From: Candidatus Staskawiczbacteria bacterium | Lineage (GTDB): Bacteria > Patescibacteriota > Minisyncoccia > Minisyncoccales > Staskawiczbacteraceae | NCBI GenBank assembly: GCA_026395295.1 | Contig: JAPLYZ010000006.1 | Location: forward strand, 21,836 to 85,835 | DNA: 64,000 nucleotides | Direction: 5' to 3' | Shown: positions 6,839-58,091 of the stretch, piece by piece | How the letters are laid out: each line of letters starts with the position of its first letter | Position numbering within the stretch: the first letter of the stretch is position 1 | The notes under the pieces: generated by a model | Told to the model about the DNA's origin: nothing | The model's input: only the letters and a program-made list of their open reading frames with translations | Database searches by the model: none | Translations under genes and position numbers: made by a program

Positions 6839-6867
6839 TTGACACGGCTGGTTTTTTAAAATATAAT
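6839..6867 (+). promoter_or_regulatory. Promoter of GC-rich cassette A
   Basis: TTGACA (6839-6844), 17-nt spacer, TATAAT (6862-6867). Confidence 0.65.
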
Positions 6868-6969
6868 CGCAAGTGCACCTTGACAAAAGCAAAACCATAT
6901 ATGTTTTATCCCGCTATTGTGGCGGGAGCAGATGTGGGCTTTATAGTCTGGGAGAAAGGATTGGTTATT

Positions 6970-7725
6970 ATGAAGAGCATTGTATTGATAGTATCAGCAT
7001 TGTTTTGGTCGGCAACTGCCGTATTCTCCGCTGGTCCGGCAACGACCAGTGGCGACTGGAGGTTCAGCTTCGCGTTCGCCCCAAATTACTACGACACGTC
7101 CGGGGTGGAGTCGAAGTCAATTCCGGTCAACCCTGCGGATGCAGGATTCTTGCACGGCAACACCGAGGCGCGCGCACGCAGCGGCGTGGACTGGGCGTGC
7201 TTCGAGCTGGGCCTGGCGAAAAGTTTTCGCATCAGAAGCTGGGAAGGGCAACGCTGGTCATTACGACCAATAGTTGGGATTAACGCGCAGTTCAGTTTCC
7301 TTTCCTTGGGGTCAGACAGCTCGGATAATACGGACAGGGCCCTTTTCAATGTTAAGCAACAGTCTTCAGACACGCGGCCACCCTCGAGCGGATCGTTCGT
7401 GTATGACAAACTGAATCCCGGAATTGTAACCCCAATTCCATTTCTGGGCGTGGAAATCAACTGCGGAAACCTGATCCTGAGTCCCGAGATCGGATTTGCG
7501 TGCAAGCAGTTCTCCCGGGAATTTGGCGATTACAGGTGGGCAGTTTTTTCAGCCATCGGGAAGTCTTCTGAATGGGTATTCAGCCCCAGACCAGCGCTGA
7601 AAATCGGCTACAAATTTGATGAGAACATCGAAGTAGGCGTGTCCTGCGCGTACGAGTCCTACAAGTGTAGCTTCGGCACCGTGAAGGAGTTTTCGGCCGG
7701 CATCTACGGGCGAATCAGCTTCTAG
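6970..7725 (+). CDS. GC-rich cassette A: secreted protein with outer-membrane beta-barrel-like features
   Basis: Signal peptide MKSIVLIVSALFWSATAVFSAGP. Alternating hydrophobic/polar strands and aromatic girdle residues. The C-terminal ...AGIYGRISF ends in Phe. gaaagga lies upstream of the ATG at 6970. The region is much more GC-rich than its flanks. Confidence 0.6.
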   Translation: MKSIVLIVSALFWSATAVFSAGPATTSGDWRFSFAFAPNYYDTSGVESKSIPVNPADAGFLHGNTEARARSGVDWACFELGLAKSFRIRSWEGQRWSLRPIVGINAQFSFLSLGSDSSDNTDRALFNVKQQSSDTRPPSSGSFVYDKLNPGIVTPIPFLGVEINCGNLILSPEIGFACKQFSREFGDYRWAVFSAIGKSSEWVFSPRPALKIGYKFDENIEVGVSCAYESYKCSFGTVKEFSAGIYGRISF

Positions 7726-7750
7726 CCCCTCTGCCTGGTCAGCGGTTTAT

Positions 7751-7786
7751 GCGGTTTCGTTCACTAAGCGAAACCGCCTTTTTTAT
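7751..7786 (+). terminator. Terminator of cassette A
   Basis: Stem gcggtttcg / cgaaaccgc, loop ttcactaag, then ctttttt. Confidence 0.75.
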
Positions 7787-7801
7787 TCGGTGTCATAAAC
7801 C

Positions 7802-7830
7802 TTGACAGGATTGCAATTATGATATAAAGT
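7802..7830 (+). promoter_or_regulatory. Promoter of GC-rich cassette B
   Basis: TTGACA (7802-7807), 17-nt spacer, TAAAGT (7825-7830). Confidence 0.5.
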
Positions 7831-7913
7831 ATTTGTAGCACTTAAAATCGGCGAATCCGAGCCTTGCATGGCTGCAAGGCAAGGACAAGCCAAAATATGG
7901 AAAGAAGACACCG

Positions 7914-8444
7914 ATGAAGAAAACAATCACAATTAAAACAGGTGATAAGCCGAAGCAGAAGAATGGAAAAACCGAAATGCAGAAGTTCCTGCTGGATCTC
8001 AGCCGCCAGATCGGCGCCGTGAAGCTGGGTGACGATGCTACTGGACCGAAGGAGGAAGTCGGACCAGGGGAAAGGGTTATCGGCACTTTGCCCGAAGACG
8101 TCAGGAAGCTCTTTGTTGTACACTCCAATCACATCGATGCGATGAATGGGCTGTGCAAGGGTTTCCACGCCTCATCATTGGAATTCCTTCTTGGCAAACC
8201 GCCTGAGCCCGAAGATGCGGTCGCTGCGGATCAACATGTCGTGTTGCACAGGCAGGTTGAACTCGTCAGCAATATCTTCTGGCACAGCGTCAGGAGAGCC
8301 TTTCCCGGAATTGCCTGCGAGGATCATATCGGGATCCGCAAGGACTGGCAGGTGGTCGTCATCCGCGAGCCCGAGTTGCCTAGTTCGGCGGTTGGTCTGG
8401 CTACTCTGCTGTCGCTATTGGGACGACAGCCTCATCGGGGTTAA
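7914..8444 (+). CDS. GC-rich cassette B: hypothetical protein (176 aa)
   Basis: Longest ORF of the GC-rich block, with overlapping shadow ORFs in other frames. I recognise no motif. Confidence 0.45.
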   Translation: MKKTITIKTGDKPKQKNGKTEMQKFLLDLSRQIGAVKLGDDATGPKEEVGPGERVIGTLPEDVRKLFVVHSNHIDAMNGLCKGFHASSLEFLLGKPPEPEDAVAADQHVVLHRQVELVSNIFWHSVRRAFPGIACEDHIGIRKDWQVVVIREPELPSSAVGLATLLSLLGRQPHRG

Positions 8445-8476
8445 CGCCCCGCCCTAATTTCGGGAAACTAGTTTAT

Positions 8477-8512
8477 GCCCCCTTTCGTTCACGCGAATCG
8501 GGGTCTTTTTTT
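8477..8512 (+). terminator. Terminator of cassette B
   Basis: ccccctttcg-ttcac-gcgaatcgggg followed by tcttttttt. It shares the 10-mer tttcgttcac with the terminator of cassette A. Confidence 0.6.
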
Positions 8513-8589: not shown

Positions 8590-8618
8590 TTGACATTAGG
8601 GATTTTTTGGTGTATAAT
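8590..8618 (+). promoter_or_regulatory. Helicase promoter (extended -10), leaderless-looking
   Basis: TTGACA, 17-nt spacer, tgTATAAT. Only 5 nt separate the -10 box from the ATG at 8624. Confidence 0.65.
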
Positions 8619-8623
8619 TAAGT

Positions 8624-9892
8624 ATGATACATAAACAAGCAGAAAAACCTTTATTAAATGAAACCGAAATGACTTTCGGCGGACTTGGCATTGCTCCAAA
8701 AATTCTTGATGTAATTTCAAAATTAGGATTTAGCGTCCCAACTTCCATACAACACAAGGCAATTACGCCTGCCATTGAAGGCAAAGATATTATTGGAATA
8801 GCTCAAACCGGCACAGGAAAAACTTTGGCATTTGGAATTCCCCTGATTCAGCAAATTTTGAAGGTTGGAGGACGAAAGGGTAAAGGCTTAATTATTTTGC
8901 CGACTCGCGAACTGGCCCTGCAGGTTGACGAAGTTATGCAAAAAATTGGCAGGTCATTTGGCATAAAAACAGTGGTTTTAATTGGAGGCGCTTCAATGTA
9001 TAACCAAGTGTGCTTAATAAGAAATAATCCTCATATTGTCATTGGAACCCCGGGAAGAATTATTGATCACATAGCTCAAAGAACCCTGAGTTTGAGCGAT
9101 GTCTCGGTGCTAATTTTAGACGAAGCCGACAGAATGTTTGACATGGGTTTTGCTCCACAAATAGCCAAAATACTTCAAGTTGTTCCAAAAGAAAGACAAA
9201 CAATGCTGTTTTCAGCAACCATGCCCGATGGCATTGTAAAAATTGCCAGCCATCATATGAAACTTCCGGTAAGGGTGGAAATAGCCAGGGCCGGAACCAC
9301 TGCTGAAAACATTGAGCACGAACTTTTTGTTGTTAAAAGGGACCAGAAATTTCCGTTGCTGAAAAAATTGCTTGAAGAGTACAAAGGAAGCGTGCTAATT
9401 TTTTTAAGAGTTAAGCATAACGCCAGAAAAATTTGCGATGGTTTGCGAGGCGTTGGAATTTCTTCAGCTGAAATACATTCAAACAGGTCTCTGGGCCAGA
9501 GAAAAGAAGCCTTAGAAGGCTTTAAGTTGGGCAGGTACAGGGTGCTTGTTGCAACTGACATTGCCTCGCGCGGGATAGATGTGAAGGGCATTGAGCTGGT
9601 TATCAATTATGACCTGCCGGAAAATCCTGAAGATTATGTTCACAGAATTGGAAGAACCGGCAGGGCCGGCATGACAGGCAAAGCAATTTCTTTTTGTTTG
9701 CCTGACCAAGGAGATAAAGTAAGGGAGATAGAAAGATTAACGCGGCTTTATTTGCCCATTGTAAAATTGCCGGACCTTTCGGCTCACATGGGTAAGCCCA
9801 TTAGCGCTTCAAATAGTTTTGAGAGAAATAATTATCCTCCGCGCAGGTCTAGGCAAACTAACCGTTTTAGTTATGCAAAAAAAAGATACTAA
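8624..9892 (+). CDS. DEAD-box ATP-dependent RNA helicase
   Basis: Q-motif, AQTGTGKT, PTRELA, DEAD (LILDEADRM), SAT, HRIGRTGRAG. Confidence 0.95.
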   Translation: MIHKQAEKPLLNETEMTFGGLGIAPKILDVISKLGFSVPTSIQHKAITPAIEGKDIIGIAQTGTGKTLAFGIPLIQQILKVGGRKGKGLIILPTRELALQVDEVMQKIGRSFGIKTVVLIGGASMYNQVCLIRNNPHIVIGTPGRIIDHIAQRTLSLSDVSVLILDEADRMFDMGFAPQIAKILQVVPKERQTMLFSATMPDGIVKIASHHMKLPVRVEIARAGTTAENIEHELFVVKRDQKFPLLKKLLEEYKGSVLIFLRVKHNARKICDGLRGVGISSAEIHSNRSLGQRKEALEGFKLGRYRVLVATDIASRGIDVKGIELVINYDLPENPEDYVHRIGRTGRAGMTGKAISFCLPDQGDKVREIERLTRLYLPIVKLPDLSAHMGKPISASNSFERNNYPPRRSRQTNRFSYAKKRY

Positions 9893-11150
9893 ATTAAAAA
9901 AAGAAATTAAATATGACGTTGCTGTTGTTGGAGGAGGCCCGGCTGGTATAATGGTGGCTGCCACAGCTGCAGAATTAGGGGCCAAAGTTGTGTTAATAGA
10001 AAAAAATAAACAGCTTGGCAACAAGCTTCTTTTGACCGGCAAGGGCAGGTGTAATTTAACTAACGCAGAGTTCAACCTGAGAGAGCTGGTGAAGAGCTAT
10101 AATAATGGTGAATTTTTATTTCACGCTTTTTCTGTTTTTGGTCCGAAAGAAACAATTGAATTTTTCGAAAAGCTGGGGGTAAAAACTAAGATTGAAAATG
10201 GCAAAAGAGTCTTCCCCGCAAGTAATGACGCAGAAGAAGTTTTAGAAGCGCTAAATAAATTTTTAGTTAAAAATAAGGTAGAAGTGCTTTTTAATTGCGA
10301 GGTCAAGGATGTTGTTAAAAAAGGGAATAGAATTGGAAAAATAATTTTAAACACGGGAGAGGTAACAGCTAAAAAATATATTTTTTGTAGTGGAGGAAAA
10401 TCTTATTCTTTGACCGGTTCTGATGGCTCGGGATATAAATTGGTTGAAAAATTAGGGCATACAATTATAAACCCAAAACCTGCTTTAACTCCCATAAAAC
10501 TGAAAGATAACTTAAAGGGCGGAGGCATTAAAAACTTGCAGGGTATAAATTTAGAAAATATAAGGTTAAGCGTTTTCCAAAACAATAAAAAGCAATTTTC
10601 AGAACCCGGAGAAATCTTGTTTACTCATTTTGGAATAAGCGGGCCGGCTGTTTTAAACATCAGCGGAAAAGTTGGCGACTTGCTGGAATTGGGAGAGGTA
10701 AAAATAATTGTTGATTTGTTTCCAGAGTTGAATCAAGAAGAAGTTTCTGAAAGTTTTGAAGAGATGTTAAAAAAATATCCGAAGAAGACTTCAAAAAATG
10801 TTTTATCGGAATTTTTGCAAGAGAGGCTGGCAGAATTTATATTGGGCATTTCCGGCATAGATAAAGATAAAACAGCTAACAACATGTCTAAGATTGAAAA
10901 AGCAATGTTGGTGAAAATTCTCAAAAATTTTGAATTGACGCCGGAAGCTGTTTTAGGTTTTGAAGGAGCCATGGTTACAAGAGGAGGCGTATCTTTAAAA
11001 GAAATAGATCACAAAACAATGCAGTCAAAGATAATAGATAATTTATTTTTTGCAGGAGAAATTATTGATGTCGACGGAAGAACAGGAGGATTTAATTTGC
11101 AATCCTGCTGGAGCACGGGTTATTTGGCCGGTAAAAGTGTTATAGATTAA
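9873..11150 (+). CDS. HI0933/BaiN-like FAD-dependent oxidoreductase (aminoacetone oxidase family)
   Basis: DVAVVGGGPAGIM dinucleotide fold, GKGRCNLTN, and C-terminal FFAGEIIDVDGRTGGFNLQ. The internal ATG at 9873 is preferred. Confidence 0.85.
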   Translation: MQKKDTKLKKEIKYDVAVVGGGPAGIMVAATAAELGAKVVLIEKNKQLGNKLLLTGKGRCNLTNAEFNLRELVKSYNNGEFLFHAFSVFGPKETIEFFEKLGVKTKIENGKRVFPASNDAEEVLEALNKFLVKNKVEVLFNCEVKDVVKKGNRIGKIILNTGEVTAKKYIFCSGGKSYSLTGSDGSGYKLVEKLGHTIINPKPALTPIKLKDNLKGGGIKNLQGINLENIRLSVFQNNKKQFSEPGEILFTHFGISGPAVLNISGKVGDLLELGEVKIIVDLFPELNQEEVSESFEEMLKKYPKKTSKNVLSEFLQERLAEFILGISGIDKDKTANNMSKIEKAMLVKILKNFELTPEAVLGFEGAMVTRGGVSLKEIDHKTMQSKIIDNLFFAGEIIDVDGRTGGFNLQSCWSTGYLAGKSVID

Positions 11151-11929: not shown

Positions 11930-11945
11930 CTGGTATAATAAGTTT

Positions 11946-17119: not shown

Positions 17120-17300
17120 TGTCTAGACGTTTTTCTTTGTATTTGGTATGATTAACATCGGTTCTTTGACAATCTAACGGGGAAAGATCACAGCTTATAG
17201 AAAATTTATCAAGAGTAATAGTTTTTTGCAAGCCGTGATCTGTCCCTAAGCATCTGGACAGAAGTCTGGCAAAAAAATGAAAGAATAGAAAATAAATGTT

Positions 17301-17612
17301 ATGAATGGGCTTCGCGCAGCGACACACCACAGAGAGTGCTTTCTAAGCAAGCCATTGGCGGACGGCAAGTCGCCGATGGACGTGTGGGTTCCAATAAAAT
17401 CTGGCGCAGGAAAATTCTTGCGCAAGGAGGCGCACCACATTGAGCGCCAGGACATGAAGAGGAAGTTGACAAAGCTGGACATCAGCGATTCGGACGAAGA
17501 CTTGTCGTTCGCCGTGCCATTTGTTCCGTTCGACTGGATGTATTGGAAAGCCCGTCAGAGTGCTTCTGTCCACGCGACCGCTACCCACGTCTACTTTAAC
17601 CGGAGCCGGTAA
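17301..17612 (+). CDS. GC-rich cassette C: hypothetical 103-aa ORF (coding status uncertain)
   Basis: Longest ORF in the GC-rich block. Competing ORFs exist on both strands, there is no SD, and no clean promoter was found. Confidence 0.3.
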   Translation: MNGLRAATHHRECFLSKPLADGKSPMDVWVPIKSGAGKFLRKEAHHIERQDMKRKLTKLDISDSDEDLSFAVPFVPFDWMYWKARQSASVHATATHVYFNRSR

Positions 17613-17634
17613 TTTGGTTTGCGGTACTTACAAA

Positions 17635-17679
17635 GGCTACTTATTCGCAGAAAGGCGAATAGGCAGCCTCTTTTTTTTT
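17635..17679 (+). terminator. Terminator of cassette C
   Basis: 14-bp stem ggctacttattcgc / gcgaataggcagcc with one mismatch, then a T9 run. Confidence 0.7.
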
Positions 17680-17730
17680 GTTTCGAAACATCATCTTGCT
17701 TCCTATTATGTTTTTTGGTACAATAGAAAT

Positions 17731-17946
17731 ATGAACTTTTGGAAATGGTTGCTATATTTAACTAATAATGAAAAAACGTCTCACCACGAACAGCTGTTTG
17801 ATGTGATTTTTTTGATCATAAATACAACTGCGCTTATTTTCGGAATTTTTTTGTTTATTGCTCACGACCAGCCGGAATGGGTGCCCATTTTGATAATTGA
17901 ATACACCTGGGCGTTTGATAATATGCGAAACAACAGGAATTACTAA
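17731..17946 (+). CDS. Small membrane protein (71 aa)
   Basis: The internal ATG at 17731 is preceded by TTGCTT-N17-TACAAT and a 6-nt gap. There is one clear hydrophobic helix. Confidence 0.5.
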   Translation: MNFWKWLLYLTNNEKTSHHEQLFDVIFLIINTTALIFGIFLFIAHDQPEWVPILIIEYTWAFDNMRNNRNY

Positions 17947-18706: not shown

Positions 18707-18713
18707 ACACACT

Positions 18714-21465: not shown

Positions 21466-21487
21466 CTCCATTTATAAATCAAAGGTA

Positions 21488-23098: not shown

Positions 23099-24229
23099 AT
23101 GAGCAAAGCCTTGGATATTCATAGAAAATTAAAGGGGAAGATAGAGATACGCCCGAAAATAAAAGTCTCAAAGAGGAACTTAGGTTTAATTTACACACCG
23201 GGTGTGGTTGAGGTGACAAGAGAGATTGCAAATAATCCTGAAAAGTCTTACGAATACACCGGTCGCGGAAATAACGTGGCAATTATTACCGATGGTTCGC
23301 GCACGCTTGGGGTTGGGAACACGGTTCCTGAAGCATCTTTGCCTGTAATGGAAGGCAAGGCAATGTTTTTGAAATTACTTGCAGGAGTTGATGCGTATCC
23401 CTTATGCTTAAACACGAAATCCAAAGAAGAGATTTTGCGAACTATTGAAATTTTATCTCCTAATTTTGGAGCTTTTAATTTGGAAGACACATTAGCTCCA
23501 AAAAGTTTAGAAATTATGGAGGAATTGAGGCAAAAAGATTTTATTGTTTTTCACGACGACGAACAAGGCGTGGCAATAGTTGTTTTGGCATCGCTATTGA
23601 ATGCCTTAAAAGTTGTCGGTAAAAAATTGGGGAAAATAAAAATTTGTGTTGCCGGAGCAGGAGCAGCAGGATATGGTATTTTTAAAATTTTAAATTATGC
23701 AGGCGTTAAGAATATGATATTTTTTGACGCTAAAGGAATTATATTCAAAGGCAGGGAAGGGGACAATAAATATTTAAAAGAAATAGCCAAAGGTACGAAC
23801 TTCGGAAACTTAAGAGGCGCGAAAATTGAGGCAATTTTAGGAGCAGATGTTTTTATTGGAGTTTCCGGAGTTGGAAATCTTTTGAAAAGTTCCGACATAA
23901 AGCTTATGGCTGAGAAACCAATAATTTTTGCCATTTCAAACCCCAATCCGGAGGTTTTGCCCGAAGAAATAGAAAAAATTGCAAAAGAATATATTTTCGC
24001 CAGCGGAAGCTCTAATTTTAAAAATCAAATTAACAACATTATTGTTTTCCCGGGAGTTTTTAGGGGGCTTTTAGATTACAGAAAAAAAATGGATCTGGCG
24101 CTGGAACTGAAAATTGCAGAATCAATAGCCTTCTTGGTCAAACAACCGAAAAAAAATAAAATTATACCAAACCCATTTGATAAAAGATTGGTTAAAACCA
24201 TAACCTTGTGCATTAAGAATTTTTGTTGA
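23099..24229 (+). CDS. NAD(P)-dependent malic enzyme (short MaeB-type)
   Basis: LIYTPGV, ITDGSRTLGVGN, PVMEGKAMFLK and GAGAAGYG Rossmann motifs. Confidence 0.9.
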   Translation: MSKALDIHRKLKGKIEIRPKIKVSKRNLGLIYTPGVVEVTREIANNPEKSYEYTGRGNNVAIITDGSRTLGVGNTVPEASLPVMEGKAMFLKLLAGVDAYPLCLNTKSKEEILRTIEILSPNFGAFNLEDTLAPKSLEIMEELRQKDFIVFHDDEQGVAIVVLASLLNALKVVGKKLGKIKICVAGAGAAGYGIFKILNYAGVKNMIFFDAKGIIFKGREGDNKYLKEIAKGTNFGNLRGAKIEAILGADVFIGVSGVGNLLKSSDIKLMAEKPIIFAISNPNPEVLPEEIEKIAKEYIFASGSSNFKNQINNIIVFPGVFRGLLDYRKKMDLALELKIAESIAFLVKQPKKNKIIPNPFDKRLVKTITLCIKNFC

Positions 24230-24254
24230 CTTTTATTATGGCGCGTTGTAATGT
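24226..24254 (+). promoter_or_regulatory. Promoter of GC-rich cassette E (overlaps the malic-enzyme stop codon)
   Basis: TTGACT (24226-24231), 17-nt spacer, TAATGT (24249-24254). Confidence 0.5.
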
Positions 24255-24300
24255 TTAATTAGTTCTTAAACAACCAAGCAAATAGAAAGAGAGAGCAGAT

Positions 24301-25353
24301 ATGAATACACCGAAATCGATAATTCCGAATGGGGCGCTTACTGCGTTAGTGACTCCGCTTTTACCCAATGGGGAAATATATTGGGGAGGGCTTGAAAAGC
24401 TTGTTGCCTTTCAGGCTTCCCAGGGAATCTCTGGTATAGTTCCAGTTGGGACAACCGGAGAATCCTCAACTTTGGCTGAGCATGAGCACAATGCGGTCAT
24501 CAGGCAAACGCTTAAGCTGGGCTTAGGTAAATTGTTGGTTATGCCCGGGTGCGGGTCAAACAACACCAAGGAAGCCATGCATTATGTGCAAGTGGCTGCC
24601 AAAAACGGCGCCAAGGCAGTTCTTTTAGTGGATTGCTACTACAACGGACCATCGTCCTTGGAACTTCGAAATGAGTACTATGGTCCGATCGCTAAAGCTT
24701 TTCCCGATGTTGCCATTGTTCCGTACATCATCCCGGGGCGGACAGGTTGCGCCTTGTGGCCCCAGGATTTGGCAGAACTCAATCGCGAATTTCCCAATGT
24801 CTGTGCGGTCAAAGAGGCGACCGGAGACTTGGCGAGAATGTCGCATACCAGGTTTTTGACCTCGCCGGAATTCCAGATTTTTTCAGGCGACGACGATAAG
24901 ACGCTTGAGATGATGTGTAGTAATCAAATCAGAGCATGCGGAGTGATTTCAGTAGTTTCAAATATCGCTCCGGCGGCAGTGCAGGTTATGTGCACAGCAG
25001 CCCTCAGGGGTGATTTCAACTCCGCCGTGGCAATGTACGAGAAGCTGGCTCCATTGTTCAATATTGTGACAGTTTTGGCGGACCGAAAAGTGGGGAATTC
25101 GTCGGCTGTTACCGACAAGTTTCGCAACCCGCTACCGATCAAGACCGCAATGAACGCGCTCGGAATGCCGGCAGGACCTTGCCGACAACCGCTTGGCAAA
25201 ATGACGCCAGCCGGCGCGCAAAAAGTTCGCGAGGCGCTCACCGAGGTCTGGCGGAAAAGTCCCGAGGTACTTTTACCCATACAAGGCTTCTTCGACGTCA
25301 ACATCGAGCAACGGCTTTCGGATGAAACTCTTTGGAGAGTTTTATGCTATTAG
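24301..25353 (+). CDS. GC-rich cassette E: DapA/N-acetylneuraminate-lyase family class I aldolase (350 aa, long C-terminal extension)
   Basis: GTTGES motif, the YYNGPS tyrosine motif, and the Schiff-base lysine context AVKEATGD. GC-rich codon usage (ccg/gcg/ggc). Confidence 0.8.
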   Translation: MNTPKSIIPNGALTALVTPLLPNGEIYWGGLEKLVAFQASQGISGIVPVGTTGESSTLAEHEHNAVIRQTLKLGLGKLLVMPGCGSNNTKEAMHYVQVAAKNGAKAVLLVDCYYNGPSSLELRNEYYGPIAKAFPDVAIVPYIIPGRTGCALWPQDLAELNREFPNVCAVKEATGDLARMSHTRFLTSPEFQIFSGDDDKTLEMMCSNQIRACGVISVVSNIAPAAVQVMCTAALRGDFNSAVAMYEKLAPLFNIVTVLADRKVGNSSAVTDKFRNPLPIKTAMNALGMPAGPCRQPLGKMTPAGAQKVREALTEVWRKSPEVLLPIQGFFDVNIEQRLSDETLWRVLCY

Positions 25354-25378
25354 GCTTTCGCGTTTGCGAGAGCAAGCA

Positions 25379-25409
25379 CCCAGTGCAGAAATGCACAGGG
25401 TCTTTTTTT
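25379..25409 (+). terminator. Terminator of cassette E
   Basis: cccagtgca-gaaa-tgcacaggg followed by tcttttttt. Confidence 0.7.
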
Positions 25410-33744: not shown

Positions 33745-33776
33745 CTTGCTGAAAGGCTATTGGGGCTTGACAAGGC

Positions 33777-33805
33777 TTGCTTTAAGAGGTAATATATAAA
33801 ACAAT
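33777..33805 (+). promoter_or_regulatory. Promoter of GC-rich cassette F
   Basis: TTGACA (33777-33782), 17-nt spacer, TAATAT (33800-33805). Confidence 0.6.
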
Positions 33806-33858
33806 AGGAGTAGCACTTTGTCAAATCAACAAAACTCCTAAACCCAGAAAGGCCAATT

Positions 33859-34161
33859 ATGAATAAAGTGGAAGCGTTAGTCAGCAGTCAAGGACTATAC
33901 ATTGTGGTCGTGCTGGTCGAGATGGTGTCGGTTTTCCGTCGATCACGCGACAACGCAAAAGAGTTTTTTGTGGTGACCGTAGTCGGTCAAGGTAGTGTTG
34001 GCGCCAACCTGATTGCGGCTGGCAAGGATGCAGGGCTCACGCCCACGGATATTGGCTTTGTTGCCCATAAGCTTCAAATTCCTTTACCCGAAGACGCCGG
34101 CATCCCCGACATGCACGAGCCCCGTGGCAAGGCTAACAGGTTCACCTTCGCCCTTCCGTAA
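33859..34161 (+). CDS. GC-rich cassette F: hypothetical 100-aa protein
   Basis: ORF in a GC-rich block bracketed by its own promoter and terminator, with a weak SD (gaaagg). No motif recognised. Confidence 0.45.
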   Translation: MNKVEALVSSQGLYIVVVLVEMVSVFRRSRDNAKEFFVVTVVGQGSVGANLIAAGKDAGLTPTDIGFVAHKLQIPLPEDAGIPDMHEPRGKANRFTFALP

Positions 34162-34180
34162 GGGTGAACAAAACAGCAAG

Positions 34181-34210
34181 AGCGTTCCACTTGGAGCGCT
34201 TCTTTTTTTT
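34181..34210 (+). terminator. Terminator of cassette F
   Basis: agcgttcca-ct-tggagcgct followed by tctttttttt. Confidence 0.65.
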
Positions 34211-52530: not shown

Positions 52531-52559
52531 TTGACAAGCTATTATTTATATGCTATTAT
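52531..52559 (+). promoter_or_regulatory. Promoter of GC-rich cassette G
   Basis: TTGACA (52531-52536), 17-nt spacer, TATTAT (52554-52559). Confidence 0.6.
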
Positions 52560-52634
52560 TAATACAGCACATTTAACGGGTTGGCTCTTGAAAGGAAGCC
52601 TTGGTGTCCCGAATAATACACCGCCCCAGTTCCC

Positions 52635-52925
52635 ATGAAATGTACACTGGTAATTAAAGCACCGCCTGGCATTCAGGGCGACATGCGTCTATACGAAGTA
52701 GAATTACCCTCTATCCCTCCGTTCGGCACGACTTTGTCGTTTATAACGCCAAAGTGTTCAAAGAACGGCAGGGTTTTCCACGTCAACGTTACGGGATGTG
52801 AAATAACCCTAGACTCTGAGACTCGGACAACAAACCTTGTCCTCGTCTTTGCCGAAGAGGATAAAGGACGTCCCGCGACTCTTGAAGATTGGGAGGAATT
52901 TGAGGAAACTTCGGTTGATGCATAG
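52635..52925 (+). CDS. GC-rich cassette G: hypothetical 96-aa acidic-tailed protein
   Basis: ORF in a GC-rich block, opposite in strand to the flanking thrS. No SD and no recognised motif. Confidence 0.4.
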   Translation: MKCTLVIKAPPGIQGDMRLYEVELPSIPPFGTTLSFITPKCSKNGRVFHVNVTGCEITLDSETRTTNLVLVFAEEDKGRPATLEDWEEFEETSVDA

Positions 52926-52950
52926 GGACAGAGCAGACCAACTGCTTTCA

Positions 52951-52978
52951 GGGCAATCGCAAGATTGCCTCTTTTTTT
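52951..52978 (+). terminator. Terminator of cassette G
   Basis: gggcaatc-gcaa-gattgcc followed by tcttttttt. Confidence 0.75.
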
Positions 52979-53031: not shown

Positions 53032-53062
53032 TATGTTTTTTCACGTGGCGTGAAAAAACATA
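53032..53062. repeat. Palindrome family 1, copy 1 (tatgttttttcacg-tgg-cgtgaaaaaacata)
   Basis: 14-bp perfect arms around a 3-nt centre. It is followed by tggTATAAT (-10 box at 53069-53074). Confidence 0.9.
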
Positions 53063-53120
53063 CTATGGTATAATGACATATTGGAAATGGGAATGGAAAT
53101 ATATTATTATATTAAAAAAT

Positions 53121-53660
53121 ATGAAAAAGATTTTAGATGAAATATTATGGAACATATATTATCAGACAGAGCAGGCTCGTGTTGGTGGCCGAAATGATGG
53201 CAGGTTTTTTATTTTGAACAGTGTGTTGAAAGATATCCATAATTTTAGTTCAAAACAATCAAACGCCGCAGTCTCTGACTTAAAAAAAGAAAAACTAATT
53301 GAGAAGAAAAATTACGAAGGCTCTGTTTTAATTTCTTTGACCGAAAGGGGAGTGTTGCGAGCGATTAATTTCAGATTTAGGAGGCTTGGCAACAAAAAAG
53401 AAAAATGGGACGGAAAGTGGCGTATGGTTTTCTTCAATATTCCAGAAAATCACAGAAAGGGGAGAGATGCATTAAGGTATCGGTTGAAAATGGCAGGGTT
53501 TCATAAACTGCAAGAAAGTATATTTATATATCCATATGAATGCGAAAAAGAAGTAAGAGATTTTATTAAGTTATTTAAATTGGAAAAATACGTCCGGTTT
53601 GGTTTATTGGATTTTATTGATGATGGTCAGCGTATTGCGGAATTCTTTAAATTAAAGTAA
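53121..53660 (+). CDS. Small wHTH + PaaX-like / Cas2-fold domain protein (paralog 1, 179 aa)
   Basis: KWDGKWRMVFFNIPENHRKGRDALRYRLKMAGFHKLQESIFIYPYE is the PaaX-family/Cas2-like pattern. The track ATG at 53073 overlaps the -10 box, so 53121 is preferred. Paralogous to 58178-58717. Confidence 0.7.
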   Translation: MKKILDEILWNIYYQTEQARVGGRNDGRFFILNSVLKDIHNFSSKQSNAAVSDLKKEKLIEKKNYEGSVLISLTERGVLRAINFRFRRLGNKKEKWDGKWRMVFFNIPENHRKGRDALRYRLKMAGFHKLQESIFIYPYECEKEVRDFIKLFKLEKYVRFGLLDFIDDGQRIAEFFKLK

Positions 53661-53662
53661 GT

Positions 53663-53683
53663 TTTTTCACGCCACGTGAAAAA
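53663..53683. repeat. Palindrome family 1, copy 2 (tttttcacg-cca-cgtgaaaaa)
   Basis: It starts 2 nt after the stop codon of the PaaX-like gene. The centre is inverted relative to copy 1. Confidence 0.9.
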
Positions 53684-53714: not shown

Positions 53715-53743
53715 TTGACAAGGCCATTTGTGCATGCTATCAT
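53715..53743 (+). promoter_or_regulatory. Promoter of GC-rich cassette H
   Basis: TTGACA (53715-53720), 17-nt spacer, TATCAT (53738-53743). Confidence 0.6.
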
Positions 53744-53827
53744 AAATTTAGTTTTTTAACAATAAGTCGTTCTCGCCGGCTAACCCGCTCAACAGAGCAT
53801 GCGAGAGTTTGCAGAAGGAGGTAAAGT

Positions 53828-54079
53828 ATGAAAAGAGCATTTGTTTGGTTGGGCGCAATAATAATTTGCGTCATGTTCGCGTGCAGTGATTGGGGACACA
53901 GTTTTCTTTTTCCCAGCAGATTCAACGCAAAACCACAGGTTCCTTCTCTATTGCCGACGAACAGTTCTGCAACTTGGGTCCCGCCGTTTCGTGTGGCGGC
54001 GCCAAATACAAACCTCGGAGTCCGAGTGCTTAGTCGGCAGTGGATACCGAATGGTGCGGTCGCGTCGCCACGCAGGTAG
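53828..54079 (+). CDS. GC-rich cassette H: small secreted/lipoprotein-like protein (83 aa)
   Basis: Strong SD aaggaggt 6 nt before the ATG. Signal peptide MKRAFVWLGAIIICVMFAC with a lipobox-like Cys. Alternative overlapping frames exist (53886-54134). Confidence 0.5.
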   Translation: MKRAFVWLGAIIICVMFACSDWGHSFLFPSRFNAKPQVPSLLPTNSSATWVPPFRVAAPNTNLGVRVLSRQWIPNGAVASPRR

Positions 54080-54134
54080 CAGATGCATTAGGAGCTCGAG
54101 TATGTCGGCAGATGTCCAACAATTTTTGGTATAA

Positions 54135-54173
54135 GGGTAGGTCTAACGCAATGCGTCACCTGCCTCTTTTTTT
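54135..54173 (+). terminator. Terminator of cassette H
   Basis: gggtaggt...cacctgcc stem with G-U pairs, followed by tcttttttt. Confidence 0.55.
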
Positions 54174-54231
54174 GTTTGGACACCTCAATTCCACCATTCG
54201 AGGTATTTTACGCTTTGTGTTAGTTGGTATG

Positions 54232-54254
54232 TTTTTTCACGCCACGTGAAAAAA
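54232..54254. repeat. Palindrome family 1, copy 3 (ttttttcacg-cca-cgtgaaaaaa)
   Basis: 10-bp perfect arms. With its flanks (gtatgttttttcacgccacgtgaaaaaa) it is an inverted copy of copy 1. It lies 25 nt beyond the dnaE stop. Confidence 0.9.
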
Positions 54255-54278
54255 TATACTTTGAACCGCAGATTTAGT

Positions 54279-57200: not shown

Positions 57201-57476
57201 TGCTAAAAGGATTAAGTGGTTACGTTTTGAGTCAATGTTTGGTCTTTTATCGGAAAGTTTTTCAAAAGCAGTATAAATTTCGCATCCGATTATTGGTTTT
57301 ATTCCTTTGGACTTTGCTTTTTTATAAAATTCAATGGCGCCGTACATAACTCCGTGGTCAGTTATGGCAACAGAATTCATTCCCAGTTCTTTGACGTAAT
57401 CTAAAAGCTCGTCAATTTTTGGCAAACCGTCAAGCAAAGAATAGTGGCTGTGAACGTGTAAATGTGTGAATTTCAT
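54279..57476 (-). CDS. dnaE: DNA polymerase III alpha subunit
   Basis: N-terminal PHP domain (FTHLHVHSHYSLLDG), polymerase core (PDIDLDF, GLLKMDFLGLKNL), and a C-terminal OB fold. Confidence 0.97.
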   Translation of the reverse strand: MKFTHLHVHSHYSLLDGLPKIDELLDYVKELGMNSVAITDHGVMYGAIEFYKKAKSKGIKPIIGCEIYTAFEKLSDKRPNIDSKRNHLILLARNEQGYKNLVKLVTIAHLEGFYYKPRIDEEVLEKYAEGLIGLSACVQGKIPRLLLANKLDEAEETAKKYEKFFGKGNFYLELQHHEHIPEQETANKRLIELSKKTGIPLVATNDIHYLKKEDSEAQDVLMLINTGADANDTERLTMTEDNFSMFSPEEMAEHFKDVPEAIENTQKIADACNLKIELGKTKLPTFPLPEGKTAEKFLEELCQQGLKTRFGEITDAELLKKINDRMNYELSVIEKTGFAGYFLIVQDFVNWSKQNRIIVGPGRGSAGGSLVAYLTNITNVDPLKHDLLFERFLNPERISMPDIDLDFADRRRDEVIKYVAQKYGSDHVAQIITFGTMAARAVVRDVGRALQYTYSYCDQLAKMIPMGMDLAETLEKVDEFKDKYETDPMCKRLIDLGKKLEGVARHASTHACGVVISAEPLTNTVPLQRPPKEGDEGIITQYEMHGIEDLGLLKMDFLGLKNLTIIEDTLARIYVLHDNLKIDLDKIPYDDAKTYKLLQDALTTSVFQLESDGMKRYLKELHPTTFEDITAMVALYRPGPMQFIPDYIERKHNKQKIEYLHPKLEPILRGTQGICIYQEQLMKIAQEICGFTLGEADVLRKAVGKKIKELLDAQETKFVQGAMKNGVSKKIAEELWQWVLPFASYGFNKSHSAAYATIAYQTAYLKAHYPVEFMASVLTSERADVERISFLIDECKKMEVEVLPPNINESLKNFTVVSEKNQIRFGLLAVKNVGVNIIDAVVEERKSGGQFQSIGDFIHRVKSKDLNKKSMEALIKAGAFDQFAERNQLLQNLEKMLEIARENNKKQNTNQMGLFANSSVKINHDIKLESATPASNFEKLGWEKELLGLYVSSHPLNGFKKLFETRTTAISKIDAGFVNKKVILGGLVSSVKKIITKKGQPMLFMKLEDLTGKTEVVIFPNLLERNPVALQENKIIFVAGRVDDRNGEIKIVADDVQEILIPKEA

Positions 57477-57525
57477 TGTTGTTTATTCTGTTTATTTTAC
57501 TTTTTATGCTCCTCGCGGTCAACCA

Positions 57526-57554
57526 TTGACAAGCATATCAAAGTATGCAATACT
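57526..57554 (+). promoter_or_regulatory. Promoter of cassette I (divergent from dnaE)
   Basis: TTGACA (57526-57531), 17-nt spacer, AATACT (57549-57554). Confidence 0.5.
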
Positions 57555-57583
57555 CAATGTAAGCTCATTAACAATTTGCTGAT

Positions 57584-57790
57584 ATGAAAAAAATAAAGTT
57601 GCTGACATGTGTTGGGTTGGTCTGTTTCTCTGTATTGTTGGTGTTAAGCTTTCTTTCAGACACTGACATTGTCCATGTTGTGAAATATATAATGGGTGGC
57701 ACAACAGTTATTTGTCTCGGCGTTGCCGACTTTCTCGTGACTCGGCAGAAATGTAGAGACATCAACAACAGCCGTCTTTACAAGCCCTAA
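57584..57790 (+). CDS. Cassette I gene 1: small two-TM membrane protein (68 aa)
   Basis: Two hydrophobic helices. Moderately GC-enriched. Confidence 0.5.
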   Translation: MKKIKLLTCVGLVCFSVLLVLSFLSDTDIVHVVKYIMGGTTVICLGVADFLVTRQKCRDINNSRLYKP

Positions 57791-57802
57791 GAAAGGAGCA
57801 TT

Positions 57803-58006
57803 ATGTTTTTCAAAAAATGGTTTAGACAAAGAAAGCTGGCGAAGTTGGAAAAAGACTTGGTCAGAGCAAGGTCATTGCTTGCATCATACAAAGGTATTAG
57901 TTCTTCTGCCGCAGATTCTTTCTTAACATGGCAGGCGTGGGCGCCGGAGGGTTTCTACTCAAGGGAAGTTAGTAGGCTGGAACAGGAAATCCAGTCGTTG
58001 AGATAA
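57803..58006 (+). CDS. Cassette I gene 2: small basic coiled-coil protein (67 aa)
   Basis: Good SD (aaaggag) 6 nt upstream. Heptad-like KLAKLEKDLVRARSLL...LEQEIQSL. Confidence 0.5.
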   Translation: MFFKKWFRQRKLAKLEKDLVRARSLLASYKGISSSAADSFLTWQAWAPEGFYSREVSRLEQEIQSLR

Positions 58007-58029
58007 CGGCGAAGTAATTTTCGGCTAAA

Positions 58030-58091
58030 CCTCGGATGAGAAATCTCGCAAAACAATTTTGCGTGGAATCTCATCGCGGGGTTCTTTTTTT
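58030..58091 (+). terminator. Terminator of cassette I (long compound hairpin)
   Basis: cctcggatgaga...tctcatcgcgggg outer stem, with an inner cgcaaaa-caa-ttttgcg, followed by ttcttttttt. Confidence 0.6.

What the first reader, a model, noticed from the sequence alone, without database searches (positions are those of the whole stretch)
6839..58091. Nine GC-rich gene cassettes, nearly all with their own promoter and terminator, embedded in an AT-rich backbone
Seen directly: nine blocks are visibly much more GC-rich than everything around them. They are at 6839-7786 (A), 7802-8512 (B), ~17160-17679 (C), 21488-22198 (D), 24226-25409 (E), 33777-34210 (F), 52531-52978 (G), 53715-54173 (H) and, more mildly, 57526-58091 (I). 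They are also the main places, outside the other relatively GC-rich genes (the giant surface-protein gene, parts of gyrB), where the ORF track shows long shadow ORFs piling up in several frames and on both strands.

Eight of the nine begin with a near-consensus TTGACA/TTGACT-N17-TAnnnT promoter sitting in AT-rich DNA. Each then has a leader of tens of nt, one ORF (two in I) and its own hairpin plus T-run terminator. Several native genes, by contrast, look leaderless. All nine cassettes are on the + strand, including G, H and I, which sit next to the minus-strand genes thrS and dnaE.

The products are unrelated to each other: an OM beta-barrel-like protein, a PAS/Cys-module protein, a DapA-family aldolase, a lipoprotein-like protein and several orphans.

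Inference: foreign genes from GC-rich donors have been captured repeatedly, one gene at a time, and wired to host-type expression signals. This differs from classical multi-gene islands. A dedicated capture mechanism is possible (see the palindrome/PaaX-like findings).
Basis: partly seen in the sequence, partly recalled or inferred. Interest (0 to 1): 0.8.

Follow-up and report, generated by a model that had tools for sequence, protein, structure and literature searches.

The report
GC-rich single-gene islets in Staskawiczbacteria
Nine GC-rich, self-contained one-gene transcription units sit between conserved core genes of an AT-rich Candidatus Staskawiczbacteria (CPR) chromosome; they are horizontally exchanged accessory genes at intergenic hot spots, resembling phage 'morons', and nothing points to a dedicated capture machine.

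Summary
All nine blocks are GC-rich: GC3 is 0.57 against 0.36 for backbone genes (p = 6e-7). Eight have a near-consensus sigma-70 promoter, and all have a leader, an ORF and a hairpin plus T-run. Independent assemblies are 100% identical across the C, D and E junctions.

The host is a Candidatus Staskawiczbacteria (Parcubacteria/CPR) chromosome. In about 30 related genomes the core order RNase HII-dnaE-thrS is conserved, but G, H and I are absent. The same two intergenic sites are either empty (25-190 bp) or hold other, unrelated GC-rich promoter-ORF-terminator units. One relative lacks the stretches that contain C, D and E.

Cassette families A (outer-membrane beta-barrel fold) and E (DapA) recur in sister genomes at other positions. 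Their alleles are far more divergent than the core genes. For E, the promoter, leader and terminator are homologous between copies.

The units therefore behave as a horizontally exchanged accessory pool, largely within Patescibacteria, with some non-CPR affinity (D). They are swapped at hot spots and mostly arrive already equipped with expression signals.

I found no integrase, no attC-like site and no target duplication. The PaaX-like genes and palindromes adjoin only G, H and I.

This is a chromosomal, moron-like variant of known horizontal transfer: moderately interesting, not categorically new.

The parts
6839..7786 (+). Unit A: promoter TTGACA-17-TATAAT (6839-6867), leader, ORF 6970-7725 (251 aa, signal peptide, beta-barrel), terminator hairpin 7751-7777 plus T-run
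   Evidence: Promoter scores 12/12 and the terminator was called. GC 0.54, GC3 0.66. The AlphaFold model has pLDDT 82, and all top PDB matches are outer-membrane beta-barrels (OmpT, OpcA, Pla, OmpA, Ail, OmpX), E about 1e-6 to 1e-7. Only 6 homologous clusters exist in 5.8 billion proteins.
7802..8512 (+). Unit B: promoter TTGACA-17-TAAAGT (7802-7830), ORF 7914/7977-8444 (176 aa, or more likely 155 aa), hairpin about 8478-8503 plus T-run
   Evidence: GC3 0.62. It belongs to a family with 302 representatives at E<=1e-3, about 150 aa long, most aligning from Met22. There is no Pfam or PDB match. The model is confident (pLDDT 92) but has no fold match.
17124..17679 (+). Unit C: weak TG-extended -10 site (17124-17152), long leader, ORF 17301-17612 (103 aa orphan), hairpin about 17635-17668 plus T-run
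   Evidence: GC3 0.69. No family in Pfam, NCBIfam or PHROGs. The stretch that contains it is absent in relative L091. The junctions are identical in independent contig L001.
21488..22198 (+). Unit D: promoter TTGACA-17-TAGAAT with TG (21488-21516), ORF 21565-22149 (194 aa, PAS plus C-terminal Cys-rich module), terminator 22171-22198
   Evidence: PAS_9 at 5.8e-13. Promoter scores 11/12. The nearest homologues are only about 43% identical, and the two examined sit in uniformly GC-rich contigs (0.58 and 0.48). The stretch that contains it is absent in L091.
24226..25409 (+). Unit E: promoter TTGACT-17-TAATGT (24226-24254), ORF 24301-25353 (350 aa, DapA), hairpin about 25379-25400 plus T-run
   Evidence: DHDPS at 7e-63. 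The dapA equivalog scores 226 bits against a cut-off of 206. The best non-self hit is 68% identical. Promoter, leader and terminator are homologous to copies in L133 and L131. Absent in L091. Twenty-three independent contigs show the same neighbours.
33767..34210 (+). Unit F: promoter TTGACA-17-TAATAT (33767-33795), ORF 33859-34161 (100 aa orphan), hairpin about 34180-34202 plus T-run. A second promoter (34218) follows at once, towards nusG
   Evidence: GC3 0.58. No family match. The empty-site test could not be done.
52531..52978 (+). Unit G: promoter TTGACA-17-TATTAT with TG (52531-52559), back to back with the thrS promoter; ORF 52635-52925 (96 aa orphan); conserved 3' hairpin GAGCAGACCAACTGCT at 52931-52946; terminator 52951-52970 plus T-run
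   Evidence: The ORF is absent from all related dnaE-thrS loci. The promoter and first part of the leader are shared with L059, and the 3' hairpin with L015, L017, L019 and L044, around unrelated ORFs.
53715..54173 (+). Unit H: promoter TTGACA-17-TATCAT with TG (53715-53743), SD AAGGAGG, ORF 53828-54079 (83 aa, lipobox-like VMFAC), hairpin plus T-run ending at 54173
   Evidence: Absent from all relatives, including L035, which keeps the neighbouring PaaX-like gene. Bracketed by two copies of the PaaX palindrome.
57526..58091 (+). Unit I: promoter TTGACA-17-AATACT with TG (57526-57554), 3 nt from the divergent dnaE -35 element; ORFs 57584-57790 (68 aa, membrane-like) and 57803-58006 (67 aa); terminator 58062-58085 plus T-run
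   Evidence: GC excess is mildest here (0.41; GC3 0.49). Both ORFs are absent from all relatives. In relatives the RNase HII-dnaE site is empty (45-190 bp) or holds other units.

Best explanation
The window is chromosomal DNA of a Candidatus Staskawiczbacteria (Parcubacteria, CPR/Patescibacteria). The nine blocks are accessory, horizontally exchanged single-gene transcription units, each made of promoter, leader, ORF and intrinsic terminator. They are functionally equivalent to phage 'morons' but sit in a cellular chromosome, in the short spacers between conserved core genes.

Shown: relatives have the same core gene order with these spacers either empty or filled by different GC-rich units. 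The same cassette families recur in sister genomes at other positions, as alleles far more divergent than the core genes. At least the E unit moves together with its promoter, leader and terminator.

Inferred mechanism: DNA is taken up, most likely by natural transformation, which is proposed for Patescibacteria. It is integrated by ordinary recombination. Double crossover in conserved flanks (core genes, resident promoter and leader, 3' hairpin and terminator) swaps cargo between related genomes at a hot spot. Illegitimate or homology-facilitated illegitimate recombination creates new insertions. Selection keeps only inserts that are transcriptionally self-sufficient and insulated by a terminator, so that neighbouring essential genes (dnaE, thrS, nusG and others) are not disturbed.

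The GC excess reflects a shared accessory pool drawn from GC-richer lineages, both other Patescibacteria and some non-CPR bacteria. Members of that pool turn over faster than they ameliorate. No dedicated capture enzyme is needed or evident.
For: Host and synteny: dnaE relatives at 74-91% identity are nearly all labelled Staskawiczbacteria or Parcubacteria. The order RNase HII-dnaE-thrS-p49095-p47843 is conserved.

Empty against filled sites: the dnaE-thrS gap is 25-110 bp in about 12 relatives. In about 17 it is 244-2536 bp, holding at least 12 unrelated GC-rich units, all in the same orientation. The RNase HII-dnaE gap behaves the same way. In L091, p15662, the malic enzyme gene and p27389 are adjacent, so the C-to-D stretch and E are missing.

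Lineage-wide pattern: GC-rich small ORFs are enriched for full promoters in 30 relatives' loci, 15 of 41 against 24 of 312 (p = 2.7e-6).

Units travel whole: the E promoter, leader and terminator align with those of L133 and L131. The A-family promoter is shared by L135 and L138.

Intra-CPR pool: L135 and L131 are sister genomes (ABC-F protein 86% and 84% identical), yet carry A at 46% and E at 68% identity, at other positions. The four E copies with known CPR context fall in a 29-member clade that excludes the Armatimonadota-labelled DapA sequences.

Replacement at a fixed site: L141 and L144 have backbone proteins 84-100% identical (most at least 91%) and four-fold-site identity about 70-87%. 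The syntenic islet after rpsI is only 66, 31, 20 and 70% identical, with four-fold identity about 22-48%.

Foreign signature: GC3, dinucleotide signature and SD usage all differ from the backbone.

No mobility genes or sites were found.

Literature: most detected transfers into Patescibacteria come from other Patescibacteria, individually transferred genes are common, and competence and pili are proposed routes (PMC12455944). Morons are defined by their own promoter and terminator and by deviant GC (PMC3594210).
Against: No donor was found. Every cassette protein is a singleton at 90% identity, and the best relatives are 43-68% identical.

A-family copies keep GC3 of 0.62-0.70 in all four contexts seen. 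That fits repeated import from a GC-rich reservoir, but it would also fit an unknown force maintaining GC.

At dnaE-thrS, the promoter and leader and a 3' hairpin are conserved around unrelated ORFs. Plain illegitimate recombination does not obviously produce such precise ORF replacement.

Empty-site evidence is missing for A, B and F. The transformation and recombination steps are inferred, not observed. Expression of the units has not been tested.
Confidence: 0.62

Rival explanations
1. One reading: each gene was captured directly from a GC-rich non-CPR donor as a bare ORF, and only afterwards acquired host-type promoter and terminator signals.
For: D's nearest homologues lie in uniformly GC-rich (0.58 and 0.48) non-CPR-like contigs. 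A has an outer-membrane beta-barrel fold, whereas the backbone encodes a sortase. The cassette dinucleotide signature is closer to L143 and L140 than to the backbone or to GC-richer CPR loci. L026 and L036 keep an outward promoter with no ORF behind it. At dnaE-thrS the promoter and leader are conserved around different ORFs.
Against: The E and A families have their closest relatives in AT-rich Staskawiczbacteria/CPR contigs, with homologous promoters, leaders and terminators. Empty RNase HII-dnaE sites lack the TTGACA promoter, so there the promoter arrives with the unit. In L140, a GC-rich contig, A-like genes already sit in terminator-promoter-SD units. No relative above 68% identity exists in 5.8 billion proteins.
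Confidence: 0.15
2. A dedicated cassette-exchange platform. Fixed 'expression sockets' (a resident promoter and leader, plus a 3' hairpin and terminator) are loaded with ORFs by an unrecognised site-specific system. That system might involve the PaaX/Cas2-like proteins and their palindromes.
For: The promoter and leader are conserved up to the start codon with unrelated ORFs behind them (L035/L044; window/L059). The 3' hairpin GGnCnGAGCAGnCCnACTGCT is conserved around five unrelated ORFs. Sockets with a promoter only occur in L026 and L036. PaaX_M (Cas2-like) genes lie in the same two hot spots, and H is bracketed by palindrome copies.
Against: The hairpin motif is confined to one locus across 1.8 Mb of related sequence, so it looks like ancestral local sequence. 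The palindromes and PaaX genes are absent near A-F. No recombinase, attC cores or target duplications were found. Cassette 5' and 3' ends share no motif beyond promoter and terminator consensus. Flank-mediated homologous replacement between relatives explains conserved ends around different cargo.
Confidence: 0.1
3. The genes are ancestral Staskawiczbacteria genes that were lost in most relatives, and their GC-richness is maintained locally (by selection on mRNA or codons, or by GC-biased gene conversion) rather than being foreign.
For: The A and E families occur in several sister genomes near the same ABC-F gene. An E-like islet is syntenic after rpsI in three genomes and stays GC-richer than its backbone. 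The KDPRT family recurs at the same hot spot in L025, L034 and L044.
Against: Synonymous-site divergence of islet genes far exceeds that of adjacent backbone genes in L141 against L144. Most hot-spot ORFs are unrelated between species. G, H and I are absent from about 30 relatives. In this window, native translation-apparatus genes (nusG, L11, gatB, thrS) have backbone-like GC3 of 0.36-0.46, so high expression does not raise GC3 here. The dinucleotide signature and SD usage also differ from the backbone.
Confidence: 0.08
4. Artefact: the blocks result from chimeric assembly or binning, or some small blocks are GC-rich non-coding RNAs rather than genes.
For: The window comes from a metagenome-assembled genome. 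C, F, G, H and I have no detectable homologues. GC-rich DNA yields chance ORFs.
Against: Ten independent assemblies are 100% identical across C, D and E. A, B and G are also present in separate Logan contigs. The junctions lie in AT-rich promoter and terminator DNA. There are no Rfam or tRNA hits. A, B, D and E have protein families or confident folds. H, I2, A and F have SD motifs at the correct spacing.
Confidence: 0.03

Closest known systems
Phage morons (HK97/HK022-type 'more DNA' elements; Cumby, Davidson and Maxwell 2012, PMC3594210)
   Same: Each is a single gene, or very few genes, forming an independent transcription unit with its own promoter and terminator. Its GC content differs from that of its neighbours. 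It is inserted between conserved genes and is absent at that position in relatives.
   Different: The backbone here is a cellular chromosome (dnaE, thrS, gyrB, pheS, nusG, L11), not a phage or prophage. There are no PHROG matches. The deviation is upward in GC, in an AT-rich genome.
Hyperplastic regions and PeSL (promoter-early stem-loop) modular shuffling in T4-like phages (Comeau, Arbiol and Krisch 2014, PMC4122927)
   Same: Small ORFan genes are bounded by terminator stem-loop and promoter composites. They cluster at variable sites between conserved core blocks, and recombination in the regulatory flanks is proposed to swap cargo. Here: the A-to-B and F-to-next-promoter junctions, conserved promoter, leader and 3' hairpin around unrelated ORFs, a repeated junction in L028 and the L140 array.
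   Different: This is not a phage. Within the window the junction sequences are not conserved beyond consensus hexamers and T-runs. Recombination at these motifs has not been demonstrated.
Integron gene cassettes
   Same: One-gene modules of varied, often unknown function, in one orientation, with very high turnover between relatives.
   Different: There is no intI, no attC and no array at a single attI site. The units are scattered over at least 7 sites and each has its own promoter, whereas integron cassettes are mostly promoterless.
Horizontal gene transfer, genomic islands and individually transferred genes in groundwater Patescibacteria (PMC12455944)
   Same: The phylum is the same. That study reports mostly intra-phylum exchange with some outside donors, transferred copies that are not recent (3.9-34.5% divergence), and competence and pili as the proposed route.
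   Different: In the passages I searched, that study finds transfers by phylogeny and IslandViewer. A term search of the paper found no mention of promoters. It does not describe the single-gene promoter-leader-ORF-terminator architecture, the GC-rich signature, or fixed intergenic hot spots with empty and filled states.
Flank-mediated replacement at chromosomal hot spots in naturally transformable bacteria, and homology-facilitated illegitimate recombination (from my own knowledge, not checked in the library)
   Same: Conserved core flanks surround unrelated cargo. Cargo alleles are much older than the backbone. No mobility genes are needed.
   Different: The cargo here is usually a single small gene with strong autonomous expression signals. 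Competence of this organism is inferred, not shown.

Membership tests
Phage moron | Independent transcription unit with its own promoter and terminator | tested here: met
   8 of 9 units have a near-consensus promoter, and all nine have a hairpin plus T-run.
Phage moron | Nucleotide composition differs from flanking genes | tested here: met
   GC3 is 0.57 against 0.36, p = 5.6e-7. Dinucleotide delta* is 0.114.
Phage moron | Absent at the same position in related genomes ('more DNA') | tested here: met
   G, H and I. C, D and E. Not testable for A, B and F, because no related loci were obtained.
Phage moron | Resides in a phage or prophage genome | tested here: not met
   The backbone consists of cellular housekeeping genes. 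No cassette protein matches a PHROG.
Integron cassette | attC recombination site at the cassette 3' end | tested here: not met
   No RYYYAAC...GTTRRRY core pair occurs at any of the nine 3' ends. The 3' ends share only terminator features. A dedicated attC model (HattCI/IntegronFinder) was not available.
Integron cassette | Adjacent intI tyrosine recombinase with attI and a common promoter Pc; cassettes promoterless | tested here: not met
   No integrase Pfam hit in any ORF of 100 aa or more. The units are dispersed and each has its own promoter.
Classical genomic island | Multi-gene block at a tRNA gene, with an integrase and flanking direct repeats | tested here: not met
   No tRNA gene in the window. 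No integrase. No flanking repeats except the palindrome copies around H. The units are 0.45-1.2 kb with one ORF each (two in I).
T4-type PeSL hyperplastic region | Sequence-conserved composite terminator/promoter motifs between ORFs that serve as recombination points | tested here: inconclusive
   Composite junctions exist (A/B, F/next promoter, L028 repeat, L140 array), and conserved regulatory flanks surround unrelated ORFs at dnaE-thrS. Within the window, however, the junctions are not conserved beyond consensus elements.
T4-type PeSL hyperplastic region | Located in a T4-like phage genome | tested here: not met
   The sequence is a cellular chromosome.
DapA (4-hydroxy-tetrahydrodipicolinate synthase), for unit E only | Scores above the curated equivalog cut-off | tested here: met
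   TIGR00674 scores 226.1 bits against a cut-off of 206.15. Pfam DHDPS at 7e-63.

The most novel reading that the evidence does not exclude
Staskawiczbacteria and related Paceibacteria maintain fixed intergenic 'expression sockets'. Each has a resident outward promoter and leader at one end and a conserved 3' hairpin and terminator at the other. Unrelated ORFs from a GC-rich, phylum-wide cassette pool are exchanged precisely into these sockets by an unrecognised integrase-independent mechanism, possibly using the neighbouring PaaX/Cas2-like proteins and their palindromes. For ultra-small symbionts this would be a gene-sampling platform analogous to an integron.
Probability: 0.1. Interest if true: 0.8.

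Novelty: new variant of a known kind. Interest (0 to 1): 0.45.

Why it matters
CPR/Patescibacteria have tiny genomes and depend on hosts, and how they gain new functions is an open question. This window and about 30 related loci show a concrete architecture for that gain. The gained genes are single and self-expressed, mostly small secreted or membrane proteins. They turn over at a few intergenic hot spots much faster than the core genome diverges.

If this holds genome-wide, it gives three things:
- a simple compositional and architectural rule for picking out the fast-evolving, probably host-interaction gene set in uncultured CPR genomes;
- a way to trace exchange networks, and perhaps host identity, from cassette phylogenies;
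- a cellular counterpart of phage morons and hyperplastic regions.

It also warns that GC-based island finders and binning tools may mishandle these segments.

Tried and rejected
- Structured-RNA explanation: Rfam (gathering thresholds) and ARAGORN on the window found nothing. Rfam also found nothing on L019 and L021.
- Chimeric assembly: rejected, because independent contigs are 100% identical.
- Phage or defence origin: no PHROGs or PADLOC hits for the cassette proteins.
- Recent-donor search: exact-sequence and 90%-cluster look-up found only this species. A second cluster look-up gave no taxon names.
- Integron or transposon signatures: no attC cores, no target-site duplications, no recombinase.
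- PaaX/palindrome link to all cassettes: rejected, because the palindromes occur only around the two PaaX_M genes.
- Shared promoter-leader families across unrelated units: clustering of 203 promoter regions mostly recovered orthologous loci only.
- Cassette proteins in relatives' loci: tblastn found none apart from the A and E homologues already fetched.
- Function of B: no Pfam, PDB sequence or fold match.
- Empty-site test for A, B and F: no related loci cover those sites. The one metagenome scan gave only four close relatives.
- One scanner call failed because of the size limit.
- Strand bias alone is not significant.

Full report
**Observation**

The window averages 39% GC. I fixed one ORF per block, and two in I. 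These ORFs have GC3 of 0.57 +/- 0.07, against 0.36 +/- 0.06 for 52 backbone ORFs (Mann-Whitney p = 5.6e-7). The GC-normalised dinucleotide signature of the pooled cassettes is as far from the backbone (delta* 0.114) as unrelated genomes are from each other. The backbone is close to another Staskawiczbacteria locus (0.068).

The strict pattern TTGAC[AT]-N16-18-TAnnnT occurs 12 times on the + strand against 3.2 in shuffles. Seven of these head A, B, D, E, F, G and H. I has TTGACA-17-AATACT preceded by TG. C has only a TG-extended TATGAT site. The independent scanner ranks A, D, G, H and I among the best sites and calls the terminators of A, G and I. Hairpin plus T-run ends are visible for all nine.

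Small corrections:
- The F promoter starts at 33767.
- B probably starts at Met22 (7977), because nearly all of its 302 relatives align from there.
- Native genes also have promoters and terminators.

The real contrast with native genes lies in the initiation signals. Among native ATG-start genes, 10 of 35 carry a -10-like hexamer 4-10 nt before the start codon (leaderless type) and 1 of 35 an SD-like motif. Cassette ORFs have 46-102-nt leaders, no leaderless-type promoter (0 of 10) and an SD-like motif in 4 of 10.

Chimeric assembly is excluded for C, D and E. Ten contigs assembled independently from two sequencing projects are 100% identical to window 16195-29018. A, B and G also occur on separate contigs.

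**What the backbone is**

Pfam scans of every ORF of 100 aa or more show ordinary cellular genes: DEAD helicase, LexA, PheS, GyrB, NusG, L11, sortase, thymidylate synthase, DHFR, GatB, MiaA, MiaB, ThrS, DnaE and RNase HII. There is no integrase or transposase.

A dnaE scan of one genome per species returned relatives at 74-91% identity. Nearly all are labelled Candidatus Staskawiczbacteria or Parcubacteria. The cassette proteins that are in NCBI are annotated to a Staskawiczbacteria MAG.

**Empty and filled sites**

Around dnaE, the core order RNase HII-dnaE-thrS-p49095-p47843 is conserved in about 30 related genomes. None of them encodes G, H, I1 or I2.

The dnaE-thrS spacer is 25-110 bp in about 12 relatives. 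In about 17 others it is 244-2536 bp. There it holds GC-rich units of the same build (TTGACA promoter, leader, ORF, terminator), always antisense to dnaE and thrS, and encoding at least a dozen mutually unrelated small proteins.

The RNase HII-dnaE spacer behaves in the same way. It is 45-190 bp with only two back-to-back -10 elements in nine relatives. Elsewhere it is filled with species-specific GC-rich units or PaaX-like genes.

A metagenome contig whose malic enzyme is 81% identical has p15662, the malic enzyme gene and p27389 directly adjacent. The stretch holding C and D, and the stretch holding E, are therefore absent there, together with some AT-rich neighbours.

Across 30 related loci, GC-rich small ORFs are preceded by a full promoter in 15 of 41 cases, against 24 of 312 for ordinary small ORFs (p = 2.7e-6). 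The phenomenon is lineage-wide, not a peculiarity of this window. I could not obtain relatives covering the A/B and F sites.

**Where the genes come from**

No cassette protein has a relative at 90% identity or more outside this species.

- **E** is a bona fide DapA (dapA equivalog 226 bits against a cut-off of 206). Its best relatives are 68-60% identical. Those I could place sit in AT-rich CPR-type contigs at other loci: L131, L133, L141, L144 and the contig carrying P0030. The promoter (TTGACTTTTATTA...), the leader (...AGAAAGAGAG...ATG) and the terminator of window E align with those of L133 and partly L131. The whole transcription unit is therefore homologous. In an NJ tree, the four E copies with known CPR context fall in a 29-member clade that excludes the Armatimonadota-labelled sequences.
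- **A** has a confident all-beta model whose PDB matches are exclusively outer-membrane barrels. It has only six homologous clusters in 5.8 billion proteins. One copy (L135, 46% identical) is again a 0.53-GC unit with its own promoter and terminator in a 0.33-GC backbone.
- **L135 and L131** are sister Staskawiczbacteria. Their ABC-F protein is 86% and 84% identical to the window's p15662. The cassette alleles are therefore far more divergent than the core genes and sit at different positions.
- **L140** holds a more distant A homologue. It is a 0.51-GC contig made of Pfam-less lipoprotein and secreted ORFs, each bounded by a hairpin and T-run followed at once by a TTGACA promoter and AGGAGG. 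In that context the units already exist 'pre-wired'.
- **D** (PAS plus Cys-rich tail) has relatives at no more than 43% identity. The two I examined lie in uniformly GC-rich, non-CPR-like contigs.
- **B** belongs to an uncharacterised family of about 150-aa proteins.
- **C, F, G, H and I** are orphans.

**Direct evidence for replacement rather than vertical descent**

L141 and L144 are close relatives. Their IF1, S13, S11, S4, RpoA, L17, L13 and S9 proteins are 84-100% identical, most at least 91%, and four-fold third positions are about 70-87% identical. The syntenic islet after rpsI (the E-like DapA plus three hypothetical genes) is only 66, 31, 20 and 70% identical, with four-fold identity of about 22-48%. 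It remains GC-richer than the backbone. The islet alleles are therefore much older than the genomes that carry them. This is what recombinational import of divergent alleles into a fixed site produces.

**How the hot spots look in detail**

At dnaE-thrS, the thrS promoter and the outward cassette promoter are conserved between species. In some pairs so is the leader up to the start codon: L035/L044 are about 67% identical and drop to background inside the ORF, and window/L059 show the same. The ORFs behind them are unrelated.

A short 3' hairpin, GGnCnGAGCAGnCCnACTGCT, lies between the stop codon and the terminator. It is conserved around five unrelated ORFs: window G, L015, L017, L019 and L044. 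It occurs in no other context within the roughly 1.8 Mb of related sequence I hold, apart from one unrelated regex match in L118. L026 and L036 retain the outward promoter with nothing behind it.

At RNase HII-dnaE, in contrast, empty sites lack any TTGACA element, so there the promoter comes with the unit.

Both patterns fit ordinary recombination. Homologous crossover in conserved flanks swaps cargo between related genomes. Rarer illegitimate events create new inserts. Selection removes inserts that are not self-expressed and terminated.

I found no flanking duplications, no attC-like cores and no motif shared by unrelated units beyond promoter and terminator consensus.

**The PaaX/palindrome idea**

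The two PaaX_M (Cas2-like) genes, 53073-53660 and 58160-58717, are each bracketed by their own perfect palindromes. H lies between two copies. These palindromes occur nowhere else in the window, and A-F have no such neighbour. In relatives the PaaX-like genes are themselves variable cargo of the same two hot spots. Their closeness to G, H and I is best read as co-residence in hot spots, not as evidence of a capture machine. I cannot exclude a local role.

**Comparison with known systems**

By definition the units match phage morons: own promoter and terminator, deviant GC, extra DNA relative to relatives (PMC3594210). They differ in sitting in a cellular chromosome.

The hot-spot behaviour resembles the hyperplastic regions of T4-like phages, where composite promoter-terminator motifs are proposed to mediate modular shuffling (PMC4122927). 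Sequence-conserved junction motifs are not evident within this window.

They are not integron cassettes or classical islands (see the membership table).

Horizontal transfer into Patescibacteria is documented. It is mostly from other Patescibacteria, often as individual genes, with competence and pili proposed as the route (PMC12455944). A term search of that paper found no mention of promoters. I found no description of this architecture in four full-text searches.

**Verdict**

The best explanation is a horizontally exchanged pool of moron-like accessory units that turn over at intergenic hot spots of a CPR chromosome (confidence about 0.6).

Unexplained remainders:
- why the pool stays GC-rich (A-family GC3 is 0.62-0.70 in every context seen);
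- how ORFs are replaced so neatly between a conserved leader and the 3' hairpin at dnaE-thrS;
- what an outer-membrane-type barrel does in a genome that encodes a sortase.

Novelty: a new variant of a known kind. Interest: moderate.

Noticed in passing
window 53032-53683, 54227-54259 and 58114-58762: Two paralogous PaaX_M (Cas2-like domain) genes, 53073-53660 and 58160/58178-58717, are each bracketed by copies of their own perfect palindrome: TATGTTTTTTCACG...CGTGAAAAAACATA, and the 40-bp TCTCGGTAAAAACTACGCCA/TGGCGTAGTTTTTACCGAGA. The gene plus its palindromes looks like a self-contained module. Its presence varies among relatives at the same two hot spots.
   Followed up: partly
window, upstream of native genes (e.g. 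8590-8623, 11925-11945, 17712-17730, 25420-25442, 58150-58177): Many native genes appear leaderless. A TG-extended -10 element (TGGTATAAT, TGGTACAAT or TGGTAAAAT) ends 5-8 nt before the ATG. This holds for 10 of 35 ATG-start genes, and only 1 of 35 has an SD-like motif.
   Followed up: partly
L026 10990-11077; L036 13169-13278: These dnaE-thrS spacers keep the outward TTGACA-N17-TAnnAT promoter but have no ORF behind it, so the promoter points straight into the 3' end of dnaE. They are either a deletion remnant or an unoccupied expression site.
   Followed up: partly
window 52931-52946; L015 3733, L017 13294, L019 7391, L044 4710 (minus strand of the loci): A conserved 3'-UTR hairpin, GGnCnGAGCAGnCCnACTGCT, lies directly after the stop codon and before a variable terminator hairpin. 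It is shared by five units with unrelated ORFs at the dnaE-thrS site.
   Followed up: partly
L141 5001-8703 and L144 5001-8438: A four-gene GC-richer islet (E-like DapA plus three hypothetical genes) lies directly after the rpsI ribosomal-protein cluster. It is syntenic in three genomes, yet far more divergent (20-70% aa identity) than the flanking backbone genes (84-100%, most at least 91%).
   Followed up: yes
L140 1-8398 (GCA_964559275.1, contig CAZLGC010000039.1): This 0.51-GC contig consists of lipoprotein, secreted or membrane ORFs without Pfam domains. Each has a terminator hairpin followed immediately by a TTGACA promoter and a strong AGGAGG. It includes a distant homologue of cassette A. 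The organism is unknown.
   Followed up: partly
L019 about 7900-8030 and L021 about 9600-9900 (locus coordinates, minus strand): These are GC-rich (0.60-0.62), apparently non-coding stretches behind consensus promoters inside the hot spots. One looks tRNA-like by eye. Neither reaches an Rfam gathering threshold.
   Followed up: partly
L028 13684 and 14466: Two neighbouring units share a junction of about 28 nt, from terminator tail to promoter: GGTTTTTTATTTGGAATTCCnTTTGACAA. This is a direct repeat bracketing one cassette, reminiscent of PeSL motifs.
   Followed up: no
window 1486-2429: A consensus promoter at 1486 is followed by four tandem ORFs of 57-80 aa (1604-1846, 1794-2018, 2020-2193, 2196-2429). 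By eye they look related to one another (shared basic C-terminal tails).
   Followed up: no
window 38462-39661 versus 6970-7725: The backbone encodes a sortase, a feature of monoderm-type cell walls. Cassette A nevertheless folds as an outer-membrane beta-barrel with a signal peptide and a C-terminal Phe.
   Followed up: partly
L044 3556-5320; L025 13178-14163; L034 13226-13920: A small membrane-anchored protein family with a conserved KDPRTxLC(F/Y)A motif recurs at the dnaE-thrS hot spot in three species, twice in tandem in L025. The copies are about 31-42% identical over the aligned stretch.
   Followed up: partly
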